DNA from: Eledone cirrhosa
Lineage: Eukaryota
Reading direction: 5' to 3'
Assembly (NCBI GenBank): GCA_964016885.1
Contig: OZ024762.1
Span: 13,330,001 to 13,394,000, forward strand
DNA length: 64,000 nt
Each line of letters begins with the position of its first letter. The stretch's first letter is position 1. This document shows, piece by piece, positions 10,434 to 61,092 of the stretch. Both the position numbers and the translations under genes were made by a program. The notes under the pieces were generated by a model. The model ran no database searches. It saw only the letters and a program-made list of their open reading frames with translations, and was not told where the DNA came from.

Positions 10434-10469
10434 TCTTCTGATGAAGGACTAGCGTCCGAAACGTTAAGA
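10434..10469 (+). ncRNA. Minimal type I hammerhead ribozyme motif (PLE-type)
   Basis: TCTT-CTGATGA-A-GGAC(TAGC)GTCC-GAAA-CG-TT|AAGA: stem I 4 bp, stem II 4 bp, palindromic stem III ACGT. Confidence 0.75.
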
Positions 10470-11599
10470 CCCTCTTCCTGCTATATCAAGCGTTAACCTA
10501 TATACCATCCATATACTTTACCACTTGTATTGTTATTTCTGTTTACCTTTTAAATATATATATATAACTATATATATATATCTACACACACACACACACA
10601 CATTTATATATATCCCTATTTTTCTGTATTTCTCTCTCCCTCTCTCAACCTCTCTGCCCCTCTCTCTCTCTCTCCCCTCTCAACCTTTCTCTCTCTCTAA
10701 TAACCTCTCTCCCTCTCTCAACCTCTGTCTCTCCCCTTCTCTCAACCCCCCCTCCCACTCTCTCTCAGTGCCACTCCAAATCAATGGAGTTTCTCTTGAG
10801 ATTAAACTAATCTGTGCTCACCACTCAACACAAGTGTCATCCATTGATTCATCTGTCTTTCTGTCTGTCTGACTTCTGTCTGCATGCTTGTCTGTCTGTC
10901 TGTTTGCATGTGTGTGTGTCTGTATGGCTGTCTGTCTGTCTGTCTGTGTCTCTGTCTGTCTGTCTGTATGTCTAACTTTTCGTCAGCCACTGTCTATCTG
11001 TTTGTCATCGCTACCTTCACCAGCAGCCGACACCACCACAAACACCACCTCCATTACACCACCACCACCACCACCACCATCACCACCACAAACTCCACAA
11101 GACCACCATCATCTTTACTCTACCGCCACCAACACCACCACCACCACGACCACCTCTACTACATCACCACGCCACCACCAACACGACCACCACCATGTAC
11201 TGCCATTCTTCTCAAGTGTCGATCAGTACAAACAGACCAGCATCTCTGTACAGACCGCAACCAGCAGCAATATATAAACCTACTTTACAACACCACCACC
11301 ACCACCACCACCAACAACAACAACAATAACACTAACAAAAGCAGCAACAACAACAATGTAGCGTAAACAATTCTCATTATAGTTCTCTGGTAATTGAATG
11401 GTGTTGTTGTTGTTGTTGTTGGTGGTGGTGGGTGATGGTGACGATGAAGATTATAATTACGATCATGATGAGGATGTTGGTGTTCATGACGATTTATAAT
11501 GAGGATTTTGATAATGATCATGACACAGATAATAACAATTATTATTATTATTATTATTATTATTATTATAAAAAGGAACACATATTGGTACTGAATATC

Positions 11600-12480
11600 T
11601 GAGCATCCTCAGGTCATCTCTATACAAACCTCTACAAAACCTAACGAGCAACACACACAAAGGATCTTACCTAATAAATAACATTAACAAAAGGATATCT
11701 AATTTACTGTCTACTGTTGAAATATTTCATTATGCTGCACCTTACTATAATACCACCATAGAAGTCAGTGGACTCAAGAAGTTCGTATATTTGCACCTCA
11801 CTACAACAAAATACAAACAAAATGATTGTCTTCTTATGTCAAGTTAAATATGTGTAAAATTATTTTAGTATTAATAGTTAAACACTTCTCCACAGACTAG
11901 AACACACACACACACACACACACACACACACACACACACACACACACACACACACACACACACACACACACACACACACACACACACACACACACACACA
12001 CACACACACACACAAATTCGATAATCATAACTCAAAAGTATTTGCTGCATAACCATCAATATGAAAATATTAGCAAGAGCTGCAAAAACCTGTCATGATG
12101 CCCACTAAATATATCCTTGAGTCACAAACAGTTTACACGAAGTAGATTTTCACATATACTGCGTCTTACTCCAATAGTGATCAAGAAAGATATAGGCATA
12201 ACAGAAGGCAAACATGAAGCAGAGATATAACAACCACACGGCAACGCTCGGTAATTTTATATGAGAAATACACCAGAAAACTATCAAGACACAACGGATA
12301 ATTGAAAGACAGCGAGCGGTGCATATATGAAGATAAATGGAAAAATACAAAATACTAGAAAAAAAAACAAAACAGTCAAATAATAAAACTAAACCACGTG
12401 ACACCAGCATGAGATATGAGATTATTACCAAATGCAAATGTTCTGAGAAACATTTGTTGCAATGCTGGAGCCAGATAAAG
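11600..12480 (+). pseudogene. Decayed Penelope-like retroelement ORF (RT thumb, linker, GIY-YIG endonuclease), interrupted by (CA)n
   Basis: Hand-translated fragments in the expected order: INKRISNLLSTVEIFHYAAPYY..SG, CPLN, IGITEG, KQRYNNHTAT, LSRH..LKD, KILEK, RYEIITKCK.SEKHLL; contains frameshifts and stops. Confidence 0.75.
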
Positions 12481-15033
12481 ATAACAGCATGTTGGTTTAC
12501 ACAACACAGATATATATATATATATATATTTTTTTTTTTATGTGTGTATTTCTATATATATATATATATACATATATATATGTATTTTTTTTATGTGTGT
12601 ATTTCTATATATATATATATTTTTTTTTATGTGTGTATTTCTCTCTCTCTCTCTCTCTCTCTCTCTCTCTCTCTCTCTATATATATATATATATATATAT
12701 ATATATATATATATATATATAAATGTGTGTGTGAGTGTGTATGTGTATATATATGTGTATATGTGTGAAAGTGGGTATGTATATGTATATGCCGCATCTG
12801 TATACACCTATATGCATGCAGCTGACGCCTGTATGGTGGAATATAATGTGTTTATAGATTTATACCTGTCGAAAACTTCCATCCTCACAACTACGACACA
12901 ACCACCACCACCACTGCACCTCCACCATCACCCCACCCCACCAATAACAACAACAACAACACCAGCACCACCACCACCACCACCAATATTGCTCAATTCT
13001 TCTTCATTTTATCAAAAGTGTTCTAAACCACTTAGTAACACAGCTGGGAATCTACTTCAAGTGGATTATACACACATACACATATATACACACACCCACA
13101 CACACATATATACACCCCCCCCCCACACACACACATCTACATGCATGCACGTGCCAGCATGTATATATATACATACAGGTGTGTGTGTACTTGTACACAC
13201 ACACACACACACACACATATATATATATATATATATATATATATATATATATATATATACATATATACATGCTGGCACGTACATGCGTGTATATATGTGT
13301 GTGTGTATGTACATACACATACCTACAGTCTCTGACACACACACACACACATACATACATGCAAATTTATACTCATGCGCAACCTCACTCTTTATAGTAT
13401 TAGCGGTGATAATAATGATGATGATGATAATGGTGCTGATGATGATGATGGTGGTGGTGGTGAAGACGTTGGTGATGATGATGATGATGGTGGTGGTGTT
13501 GATGATGATGATGATGATGATGATGATGGTGGTGGTGTTGATGATGATGATGATGATGGTGGTGGTGTTGAGGATGAGGATGGTGGTGGTGGTGATTGTG
13601 GTGTTGACATCAGTAATTGATATACTATTGCTGCTGCTGCTGCTGCTATTACTGCTGCTGTCACTGTGTGAAGGTGACCCCCTCCATTGTAATACAGGAT
13701 GAGAGAAACTCTAAGTATCTTTTACAGAAGGATTGTGGCTCTGATGAGATTTCAATTCTGTCTTGGTGTCTTCAAATATGGCTTAAGTGCTTCCTTGGGT
13801 ATTTAGTCCCCTTTCTTCTCCCTATGGAACATTGTGAAGAAGTGAGAACTCTTTCACCTGGCTCATACGCCAGCGATTGTTACGGCCCCAGCTCCCAGGT
13901 TGTGCTCAGATCTGCAATGAGTTTCTTTCACAAACCTCGATTAGGGGTTTGCCCTCACCGCCACTAAAACCACCTACACCGTCAACACCAACGGCAACAA
14001 CAACAACAACACCAGTAGCAATAGCAACAACAACAACAGCAGCAACAACAACAACACCAGTAGCAATAGCAACACCAACAACACCTTCACCATCAACACC
14101 AACAGCAACAACAACACCACCACCAGTAGCAACACCAACAACAACAACACCTACACCATCAACACCAACAGCAACAACAGCAGCAACAACAACACCTACA
14201 TCATCAACAACACTATCAACAACAACACCTACATCATCAACACCAGTAGCAACAACAACACCTACAACATCAACAACAACAACAACAACAACATCGTCAT
14301 GGTGTTGGACAACAAAAGAGCAAAAAGTCAGATTTTCCTAAGTGGTAATGTCACACATAGAAAAAAAGAAAGAAACGAACATACGTCTGAAGGAAAGAAA
14401 GAAAGGGAAAGAACCAAGTAAGAATGAATGATGGGGAGTAAAAAAGAAAGAAAGAAAGAGAGAGGTAAAGAAAGAAAGAGGGAGAGGTAATAAGAGACGG
14501 GTAAGGGGGAAAGGTAGACACAGTAAAAGTGCTGAGATGCACTTCACACCTTTTTTTGGTGCGGTTTATTGATGTCAACATATCTTTGGATAACTTAAAT
14601 ATTATCATCTCTTGCACCGTCTGTCTGTCTGTCTACGACTATGTCAGCCTCTCCCTTTCTCTCTCTCTCTGTCTCTCTCTCTCGCTATATATATATATAT
14701 ATATATATATATATATATATATATAGTATATATATATATTCATACATATATGTGTACATATATATATATATATATATATATATATATATATATATATATA
14801 TGTGTGTGTGTGTGTGTGTATGTAATTTCGGTTACAATGGGTTCGCCGTTTGAAGCATTCAATGCTGTTACGATGTCCGAATCGTGTTGAGTTGCATTCC
14901 AGAGATAAGGTGGCTGTAGTGTGAGGAGTGTGAATAAAGTAGGTAGCATCGAAGTGCCTGTTGCACCATATATGTACACACACATATATATATATATGTA
15001 TGTATATATATACAATATATATATATATATATA

Positions 15034-59845: not shown

Positions 59846-60761
59846 TCCAAAAGGAGGGAACGATATATACACACACACACACACATATGTATGTATGTAT
59901 GTATGTATGTATGTATGTATGTATGTATGTATGTATGTATGTATGTATGTATGTATGTATGTATGTATGTATGTATATATATATATATATATATATATAT
60001 ATATATATACTATATATATATATATATATTAAAATAACAGAGTAAAGTTTAAGTTTAAGCGAAGAATCGCTGCTTTCACCCTTAACGGGATCTTCTGAAG
60101 TTCATATATTTTATACATTTTTTATATATATTATCCTTATCGAGCTCGTTTCGGATTTCAGTCTTCACATTTAATATTATTACTATATATATATATATAT
60201 TATATATATATATATATATAATAATATATATATATATATAATATTAAGGATACTAATTTATAGCTATGTATAATTTTAAACTATAAACAACTAGAAACAG
60301 GGAAGGTCAGTAATTTATTATTACCTTATTACCAGTCAGATAAATACCTCAATGTAAGAACATCAGTTGCTTTACAGAGCAGTAATATTGAAATCACAAA
60401 TCAAAGCTATGTTCAAAACATTTATCCACTGACAATTGTTTCTTCCAATATATATTATATATATATATATATATTATATATATATATACTATTATATATA
60501 CATATATATATATATTTAATACATTAACAGAGAAAGCTTTAAGCAATACTCCGACCGGCTTCCGTCTCACTCAACAAACATTAGGATATACCTTAGTATA
60601 ATCCGAATTATACGTTTGGGGTGCAAACTATACGTATTTTGCGGATAGCCAGTTGCATTATTTTATATGAGACATAATTAAAATACATCTCTCTTTCCAA
60701 ACGATCGTGTCATTATAAGTTTTCTACAAATGGGAAAATAATGTCCTGGTTATGTAGAAGC

Positions 60762-60961
60762 NNNNNNNNNNNNNNNNNNNNNNNNNNNNNNNNNNNNNNN
60801 NNNNNNNNNNNNNNNNNNNNNNNNNNNNNNNNNNNNNNNNNNNNNNNNNNNNNNNNNNNNNNNNNNNNNNNNNNNNNNNNNNNNNNNNNNNNNNNNNNNN
60901 NNNNNNNNNNNNNNNNNNNNNNNNNNNNNNNNNNNNNNNNNNNNNNNNNNNNNNNNNNNNN
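60762..60961. other. Assembly gap (200 N)
   Basis: Run of N. Confidence 1.
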
Positions 60962-61001
60962 AACCTCGGCGGGATTTGAGGATTGCTCCGAACGAAATAC
61001 C

Positions 61002-61092
61002 CGTGTCTGAAAGAACCTGCAGCCGTAGAATCAGCCAGATCCATACAGTGACCATGTCTCGAGCTACGTGTCGGCGAAACAATTGTAACACG
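61002..61092 (+). ncRNA. Hammerhead-like motif with extended domain II
   Basis: CGTGT-CTGAAAGA-..GCCG..CGGC-GAAA-CAATTG-TA|ACACG: perfect stems I and III, atypical core spacing. Confidence 0.5.

What the first reader, a model, noticed from the sequence alone, without database searches (positions are those of the whole stretch)
10434..61092. Very dense, sequence-diverse population of minimal hammerhead ribozyme motifs (about 20 in 64 kb)
Seen: repeated stem I-CUGANGA-stem II-GAAA-stem III-UH-stem I' topology at 10434(+), 15083(-), 15250(+), 15508(-), ~16765(-), 16948(+), 24142(-), 24343(+), 26981(+), 27313(-), 27666(+), 28860(-), 42228(+), 44713(-), 45059(-), 45239(+), 48521(+), 48738(-), 50237(-), 50801(-) and 61002(+). 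Stem sequences are unrelated between families but pairing is kept. Stem III is nearly always a short palindrome (ACGT, ATGCAT, ATATATAT, ATGCGCAT, ACAATTGT, ACAGATCTGT). Established: minimal type I HHRs with palindromic stem III occur in PLE pseudo-LTRs and animal retrozymes and are thought to cleave as dimers. Inference: this genome may carry a very large, unannotated load of ribozyme-bearing non-autonomous elements from many lineages.
Basis: partly seen in the sequence, partly recalled or inferred. Interest (0 to 1): 0.88.

Follow-up and report, generated by a model that had tools for sequence, protein, structure and literature searches.

The report
Hammerhead-tipped Penelope retrotransposon remnants
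The self-cutting-RNA motifs are real and far above chance, but most are the clipped ends of known Penelope-like jumping genes that end in TA repeats; what stands out is their estimated number, likely 150,000-190,000 in this genome, and whether they cut is untested.

Summary
All 21 sites belong to repeated hammerhead-bearing families. Sixteen keep an intact core, four are decayed copies and one carries a family-wide variant core. A strict descriptor finds 9 in the window and 0 in 50 shuffles. The diversity is smaller than claimed: 11 families, nine sites from one superfamily, and several pairs are the mirror arms of one insertion. Three are 317-544-nt tandem, retrozyme-like units; four are unlinked. 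Head-to-head pairs, optional tails and (TA)n ends are published PLE traits, and an octopus Hydra-clade family with a hammerhead is published. Unselected genome samples give 50 hits in 760 kb, about 150,000-190,000 genome-wide, above every count in the papers read. Two young Hydra-type families have fixed non-canonical cores (U4A; A6a-type insertion). Cleavage and expression are untested. This scan reached the same reading before, on other DNA of this genome (e1-8804474).

The parts
10434..10469 (+). Family B hammerhead, intact (cut predicted after 10465); 3' pLTR of a Neptune-type PLE
   Evidence: B lies downstream of the ORF in 10 of 12 type-2 loci
15042..15342 (.). Head-to-head palindromic insertion, subfamily A2: arms 15085-15133(-, weak stem I) and 15245-15307(+, intact)
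15508..15597 (-). Family D hammerhead, intact, long stem II; ends in (TA)n; no ORF link found
16717..17136 (.). Head-to-head palindrome, family A1 (Hydra-clade pLTR): hammerheads 16763-16828(-) and 16945-17010(+), U-U at the base of stem II; tail on the right arm
24020..24508 (.). Family C (342-nt tandem-forming, ORF-less unit): decayed arm near 24142(-, C3U) and intact hammerhead 24342-24389(+); arms 81% alike, so one or two insertions
26977..27045 (+). Subfamily A3 hammerhead, intact
27313..27362 (-). Family E hammerhead, core broken (G8A); relatives shown have an intact core
27660..27718 (+). Family F hammerhead, intact
28825..29111 (.). Subfamily A4 palindrome: intact hammerhead 28860-28930(-); the arm at 29041(+) has an internal deletion
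31180..31234 (+).
35819..35953 (-). Second family B copy, hammerhead partly deleted
42198..42295 (+). Family G hammerhead (42228-42295) preceded by a short inverted arm that pairs with its 5' half
44373..44415 (-).
44713..44794 (-). Family H hammerhead, intact; part of a young 530-544-nt ORF-less unit found in dimers and trimers elsewhere (retrozyme-like)
44935..45423 (.). Family A1 palindrome between two (TA)n tracts: hammerheads 45059-45122(-) and 45239-45302(+, cut predicted after 45294)
48521..48581 (+). Family A1 hammerhead, one mismatch in stem II
48738..48770 (-). Family I hammerhead, U4C copy; 3' pLTR of a Neptune-type PLE
50050..50189 (.). Family M palindrome (missed), both cores broken
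50237..50285 (-). Family F hammerhead, intact core
50800..50852 (-). Family J (317-nt tandem-forming unit), decayed copy
51603..51723 (.). Family M palindrome (missed); minus arm intact (core at 51657, cut predicted after 51619), other arm broken
56428..56505 (+). Third family B copy, diverged, stem II weakened
60048..60099 (-). Second family N copy, 5' part lost
61002..61092 (+). Family K hammerhead with a family-fixed extra core nucleotide (A6a-type); pLTR of a Hydra-type PLE

Best explanation
The motifs are type I hammerheads carried near the 3' ends (pseudo-LTRs) of many Penelope-like retrotransposon families, mainly Hydra-clade and Neptune-type, and of a few ORF-less tandem units that are likely copied by the same enzymes. 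Shown: the families, the ORF links for six of them, the head-to-head pairs, the optional tails and the microsatellite ends. Inferred: the PLE endonuclease nicks (TA)n, the RT copies from sites just downstream of the hammerhead, and most copies stop within a few hundred bases, often adding an inverted second arm. Every insertion therefore leaves one or two hammerheads. Abundant TA targets and many families give about 50-60 per Mb. Cleavage likely matters only in full-length or tandem transcripts (dimer or protein-assisted) and may be dispensable for insertion. Most genomic copies are probably inert.
For: FAMILY A: 20 of 30 best copies have an adjacent inverted arm, mostly ending 160-170 nt into the 239-nt query; 6 of 30 run on upstream into a shared body; 28 of 30 reach (TA)n at the same base. 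That body ends in a GIY-YIG endonuclease with CxCX5C, no CCHH, and CxxC..E..N..CxH. In 17 of 20 loci picked for long frames, the A hammerhead lies downstream of the RT-EN ORF on the same strand. The RT has RLRW and DKT. These are the Hydra-clade traits of PMC8557442. NEPTUNE TYPE: family I is downstream of the ORF in 8 of 8 loci and family B in 10 of 12. OTHERS: K has a Hydra-type EN upstream in 3 of 16 loci; N has one 965-985 nt upstream in 3 loci, and Lf a closely related (79-100%) CCHH-type EN 143-256 nt upstream in 5 loci. C, H and J form 342, 530-544 and 317-nt tandem units with no Met-ORF over 76 aa. 53 of 59 strict hits have a dinucleotide tract within 250 nt downstream, against 25% of random positions; 26 of 59 have an inverted copy within 700 nt upstream. 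Stem II base covaries across A subfamilies: AAG/CTT 56, AAA/TTT 9, AGG/CCT 5, GGA/TCC 3, GAA/TTC 2, of 101 distinct sequences anchored outside stem II. Head-to-head pLTRs and tails are published PLE traits.
Against: D, E, F, G and M have no consistent ORF link in what was fetched (0 of 23, 1 of 13, 0 of 6, 0 of 25 and 2 of 56 hits), though most flanks were only 1.5 kb and K's ORF lay about 2.4 kb away. Clade assignment rests on motifs and by-eye comparison with the supplement, not on a tree. The local Pfam copy did not recognise the Hydra-type ORFs and gave only a sub-threshold RVT_1 hit for the Neptune-type one. No empty site or target duplication was seen. No RNA evidence. Family searches return the best 40 copies, so arrangement counts lean to young copies.
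Confidence: 0.88

Rival explanations
1. Most motifs are independent non-autonomous retrozymes that spread through self-cleaved circular RNAs.
For: C, H and J fit: ORF-less 317-544-nt units in tandem, with H copies 96-99% alike. Such units are known in animals (PMC7229834; bioRxiv 10.64898/2026.07.22.740005). The unlinked families D, E, F, G and M could add to them.
Against: 12 of the 21 sites belong to families shown attached to PLE ORFs. The largest cluster in unselected samples (19 of 59) is family A and the second (8 of 59) is Lf, both ORF-linked. Head-to-head pairs cannot release a circle.
Confidence: 0.15
2. The palindromic units are foldback DNA transposons (MITE-like) that happen to carry hammerheads.
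For: Perfect 120-490-nt inverted repeats between TA tracts. Families G and N have a near-fixed centre.
Against: The arms have unequal, family-specific 3' ends, the centres vary in family A (8-207 nt between arms), and single arms, tandem arms and ORF-attached arms all occur. The attached ORFs are RT/GIY-YIG, not transposases.
Confidence: 0.03
3. The motifs are chance matches in an AT-rich, low-complexity sequence, or assembly artefacts.
For: 32% of the window is microsatellite. A tolerant one-mismatch scan gives about 1 hit per shuffle. Rfam gives no hit.
Against: Strict scan: 9 against 0 in the window and 50 in 760 kb against at most 1 per shuffle. Covariation. Contigs of public runs hold the same families in great number (one sample, possibly the assembly's own, so not independent).
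Confidence: 0.01

Closest known systems
Hydra-clade PLEs, including Hydra-1_Obim of Octopus bimaculoides (Craig et al. 2021, PMC8557442; passages, section 11 and supplement part 2 read)
   Same: C-terminal GIY-YIG without CCHH, CxCX5C linker, DKT, RW motif, CxxC/CxH, (TA)n insertion, canonical hammerheads with 3-4-bp quasi-palindromic stem III and often a U-U pair closing stem II.
   Different: The paper lists one octopus family among 27 rows and calls the extra families few. Here at least 12 endonuclease lineages (<60% identity) turn up in the fetched loci, and Hydra-type coding remnants cover 1.3% of 760 kb of unselected sequence. Family A is not Hydra-1_Obim (different hammerhead; that motif was found in 0 of 361 loci).
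Minimal hammerheads of metazoan PLEs (Cervera and de la Pena 2014, PMC4209133; passages and section 5 read)
   Same: High within-genome heterogeneity, consensus families, mostly single motifs from truncated PLEs, opposite-strand pairs 100-700 bp apart, palindromic stem III, proposed dimer action, low activity in vitro.
   Different: Counts there are about 2,000-9,000 per genome; the estimate here is 150,000-190,000. Stems II and III are often longer here.
Neptune-type PLEs (CX2-5CxxC linker and CCHH, as defined in PMC8557442)
   Same: Families B and I follow ORFs with a CxxxxCxxC linker and two cysteines between GIY and YIG; B has the minimal ACGT stem III.
   Different: No difference of kind found; Neptune versus Nematis was not separated by a tree.
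Animal non-LTR retrozymes (PMC7229834, passages; bioRxiv 10.64898/2026.07.22.740005, part 1 of 5 and passages)
   Same: C, H and J are ORF-less tandem units with one type I hammerhead each.
   Different: H units (530-544 nt) are longer than the 150-450 bp quoted; they also carry PLE-style inverted arms and TA ends. Circular RNA is not shown.
Natural hammerhead core variants (Perreault et al. 2011, PMC3088659; passages and section 8 read)
   Same: The A6a insertion (low activity), the U10.1-U11.1 mismatch and U4C are described.
   Different: The term U4A does not occur in its main text (figures not seen). Here the variants are fixed in young, amplified retroelement families.

Membership tests
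Type I hammerhead ribozyme | Core CUGANGA...GAAA...UH with stems I-III in type I order | tested here: met
   16 of 21 sites intact; 4 decayed; 1 variant
Type I hammerhead ribozyme | Covariation of stems | tested here: met
   Double-sided changes at the stem II base across A subfamilies; stem I is mostly invariant or G-U, so uninformative; only superfamily A was tested
Type I hammerhead ribozyme | Match to an Rfam hammerhead model at gathering score | tested here: not met
   0 hits; none among the 150 of 822 E-value rows shown
Type I hammerhead ribozyme | Self-cleavage after H17 | not testable with these tools
   Needs in vitro transcription. In folding, the 15.1-16.1 pair has probability 0.03 or less in 10 of 14 monomers, consistent with needing a dimer or helper
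Hydra-clade PLE (families A, K, N) | RT with RWK-like and DKT motifs, C-terminal GIY-YIG | tested here: met
   Family A ORF: RLRWC, DKT, YxDD; for K and N only the endonuclease end was seen
Hydra-clade PLE (families A, K, N) | CxCX5C linker, no CCHH, CxxC and CxH around E and N | tested here: met
Hydra-clade PLE (families A, K, N) | Insertion into (TA)n | tested here: met
   28 of 30 family A copies; N and K ends; no empty site seen
Hydra-clade PLE (families A, K, N) | Phylogenetic placement with reference Hydra RTs | not tested
   No named references were available as data; only by-eye comparison with the supplement
Neptune-type PLE (families B, I, Lf) | CX2-5CxxC linker plus CCHH endonuclease upstream of the pLTR | tested here: met
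   for Lf only the endonuclease end was seen
PLE insertion architecture | 5' truncation, head-to-head inverted pLTR, optional tail | tested here: met
   tails here are about 80-90 nt in A and N, longer than the 30-40 bp quoted in PMC8557442
Non-LTR retrozyme (families C, H, J) | ORF-less tandem units, each with a type I hammerhead | tested here: met
   342, 530-544 and 317-nt units; longest Met-ORF 67, 76 and 31 aa; in the C dimer one core is mutated
Non-LTR retrozyme (families C, H, J) | Expressed as unit-length circular RNA | not testable with these tools
   No RNA holder listed

The most novel reading that the evidence does not exclude
This genome holds the largest known load of hammerhead ribozymes, from an unrecognised radiation of Hydra-clade PLEs, and its young families with fixed U4A or A6a cores are a natural experiment: either new active core variants rescued by long stem III or PLE protein, or proof that PLEs amplify without cleaving.
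Probability: 0.35. Interest if true: 0.55.

Novelty: new member of a known kind. Interest (0 to 1): 0.38.

Why it matters
Why PLEs keep hammerheads is open. One purified PLE inserts without cleavage, and its ribozyme needs protein (PMC11167929, parts 1-2 of 4 read). A genome with about 10^5 copies from dozens of families, some young and some with fixed core changes, offers a large natural variant library for a high-throughput cleavage assay. The head-to-head copies also put 100-250-bp RNA duplexes into introns, relevant to A-to-I editing if the host is a cephalopod. The class of element and its hammerheads are known; the scale and the Hydra-clade diversity are the additions.

Tried and rejected
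Rfam at gathering score: nothing; E-value mode swamped by microsatellites. Unmasked self-BLAST was unreadable and was redone masked. A Pfam family search of the genome with PF26215 was not possible, as the family is not in the library; a protein from a locus was used instead. The local Pfam copy does not detect the Hydra-type ORFs, although 21 of 38 unnamed homologues carry a precomputed PF26215. Expression: no RNA holder listed. Contigs of three runs of one sample showed only that the families are highly repeated; no empty allele could be read. A short motif of the published Hydra-1_Obim hammerhead was absent from 361 loci, so the host was not tied to Octopus that way. 'Octopod' is inferred from recalled genome traits and earlier notes, and was not tested. 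The anchored core count for family E was mis-anchored and is not used. One tolerant-scan control scored 13.2 on reversed sequence, so tolerant hits were accepted only with family support. One of 20 requested stretches did not exist, leaving 36 fixed-position stretches. The window's own loci were dropped before the counts. Literature: searches for hammerhead with octopus or cephalopod, PLE terms and mollusc hammerheads gave no genome-wide hammerhead count for a cephalopod. The library lacks most subscription papers, and the bioRxiv supplements, which might list such counts, were not seen. Higher Schistosoma counts may exist (recalled, unchecked), so 'record density' is not claimed as shown.
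Full report
Setting. The window is G000:C23:13330001-13394000 in a 3.0-Gb assembly. It is 32% microsatellite and spans exons of a phosphoglucomutase gene between about 30837 and 46546. The host is probably an octopod; this is inferred from recalled genome traits and earlier notes, and was not tested.

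Is it there? Yes. A strict type I descriptor finds 9 motifs, against 0 in 30 and 0 in 50 local dinucleotide shuffles, 0 on reversed sequence and 0 for ten decoy cores. A tolerant scan plus family comparison recovers all 21 sites. Sixteen have an intact core and three stems. Four are decayed copies of canonical families: 24142- (C3U), 27313- (G8A), 48738- (U4C) and 50801- (duplication). One, 61002+, has an extra core base shared by its family. Rfam finds nothing at gathering score.

How diverse? Less than stated. The 21 sites fall into 11 families. Nine belong to one superfamily (A), and 15083/15250, 16765/16948 and 45059/45239 are mirror arms of single insertions. Stem III is an exact palindrome in 26 of 59 strict hits and a near-palindrome otherwise. 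In superfamily A, anchored outside stem II, the base of stem II changes on both sides (AAG/CTT 56, AAA/TTT 9, AGG/CCT 5, GGA/TCC 3, GAA/TTC 2, of 101 distinct sequences). Sixty-five more-common and several wobble types pair; 19 of 101 have one of the three pairs broken. So the fold was kept while lineages diverged.

How many? 29 strict hits in 36 fixed-position 10-kb stretches (1 in 15 shuffles; decoys 3 in all) and 21 in 40 seeded random stretches (1 in 20 shuffles; decoys 1). It is a floor, since families M, N and K escape the descriptor. The four largest contigs are poorer (15 hits in 35 stretches) than the rest (35 in 41), and the window (9 in 64 kb) is rich. The 59 hits form 18 clusters. 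Published counts seen: about 2,000-9,000 minimal motifs per genome (PMC4209133), over 6,000 in a coral, about 5,000 in a mussel, and up to 120,000 retrozymes in axolotl (PMC7229834).

What are they? Family A has at least 3,664 first-look candidates. Of its 30 best copies, 20 have an adjacent head-to-head arm, 28 end in (TA)n at the same base, and 6 continue upstream into a shared body. That body ends in a GIY-YIG endonuclease whose relatives give 64,413 first-look candidates. In 17 of 20 loci chosen for long frames, the A hammerhead lies downstream of an RT-EN ORF of up to 699 aa. The ORF has RLRW, DKT, CxCX5C, no CCHH, and CxxC/CxH, the diagnostics of the Hydra clade. That paper's supplement lists an octopus family, Hydra-1_Obim, and Hydra hammerheads with the same 3-4-bp stem III and U-U closure. 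Families K and N follow other Hydra-type endonucleases, and at least 12 such lineages occur in the fetched loci. Families I and B follow Neptune-type ORFs in 8 of 8 and 10 of 12 loci; Lf follows a CCHH-type endonuclease. Families C, H and J are ORF-less units of 342, 530-544 and 317 nt that occur in tandem, that is, retrozyme-like. D, E, F, G and M remain unlinked, within mostly 1.5-kb flanks.

How it likely works. Inferred from PLE biology: the element's endonuclease nicks AT-rich DNA and the RT starts at one of two internal sites, which yields the optional tail (PMC11167929). Most copies are 5'-truncated and often gain an inverted arm with a palindromic junction (PMC3846280; PMC8557442). As the hammerhead sits 15-230 nt from the 3' end, nearly every insertion deposits one. 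53 of 59 hits have a dinucleotide tract within 250 nt downstream, against 25% of random positions. Predicted monomers rarely close stem III, in line with dimer or protein-assisted cleavage. Opposite-strand arms cannot make a cis dimer, and a transcript through such a pair would read the antisense arm first and likely sequester the ribozyme. Only tandem copies or full-length pLTR-ORF-pLTR transcripts would dimerise. Two young families fixed non-canonical cores: N has U4A in 52 of 56 copies and canonical U4 in none; K has an 8-nt core in 25 of 25, like the low-activity A6a variant. Their best copies are 96-99% alike, which fits the report that cleavage is not needed for insertion in vitro.

Against or missing. 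No cleavage, RNA or empty-site data; no RT tree; five families unlinked; the descriptor was tuned on the window; genome searches score only the best copies; local Pfam misses the Hydra ORFs.

Novelty. The kind is known, including heterogeneous single motifs and opposite-strand pairs. A 2026 Octopus vulgaris repeat annotation lists Penelope-like elements, with no 'ribozyme' in its main text (passages). No cephalopod-wide hammerhead count appeared in the searches. Earlier notes of this scan reached the same reading on other DNA, consulted after my reading was formed; they are not independent support. Verdict: a real, large, well-explained population; a new member of a known kind; interest 0.38.

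Noticed in passing
window 30837-46546 (+): Exons of a phosphoglucomutase gene (Pfam PGM_PMM_I, III and C-terminal). Of three sense-strand hammerheads in its introns, two (42228, 45239) are preceded by an antisense arm that would mask them and one (31187) has the U4A core; four others are antisense. Too few to infer selection.
   Followed up: partly
window 31180-31345 and 60048-60099; L231-L249: Family N: young Hydra-type pLTR with U4A in 52 of 56 copies; its inverted junction sits at a near-fixed point a few bases upstream of the core in about half of the best 40 copies.
   Followed up: yes
window 26205-26916: Tandem array of a 45-nt unit (about 16 copies) derived from a SINE-like repeat that also occurs at 27879-28015, 28366-28554, 47840-48042 and 51726-51862.
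   Followed up: no
window 38241-39430 and 40830-41429: A repeat family with terminal inverted ends (TTAACCCT-like) and internal 44-nt and 72-nt tandem expansions; looks like a MITE or DNA transposon; no hammerhead seen.
   Followed up: no
window 33463-33584, 45614-45766, 48277-48421, 38051-38200, 40115-40557, 25719-25877, 31345-31463: A very high-copy tRNA-like SINE; it had the highest summed depth.
   Followed up: no
window 35473-35817 and 42845-43198; 33685-34432 and 28043-28217: 3' ends of LINE-like (RTE-type, recalled) elements ending in (ATG)n, some in inverted pairs and 112-nt tandem repeats.
   Followed up: no
window 34565-34690, 42342-42414, 42509-42792, 60171-60247: Further short perfect palindromes without a canonical hammerhead core; possibly PLE or Naiad ends. 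Not checked for the rearranged hammerheads that earlier notes describe.
   Followed up: no
L276:6007-6989, L222:694-1731: Another retrozyme-like family (stem III ACTAGT) in tandem units of about 465-475 nt; 7 of 59 strict hits; absent from the window.
   Followed up: no
window 59547-59867 and 62550-63033: Direct repeats of 178-nt and 141-nt period, no hammerhead found.
   Followed up: no
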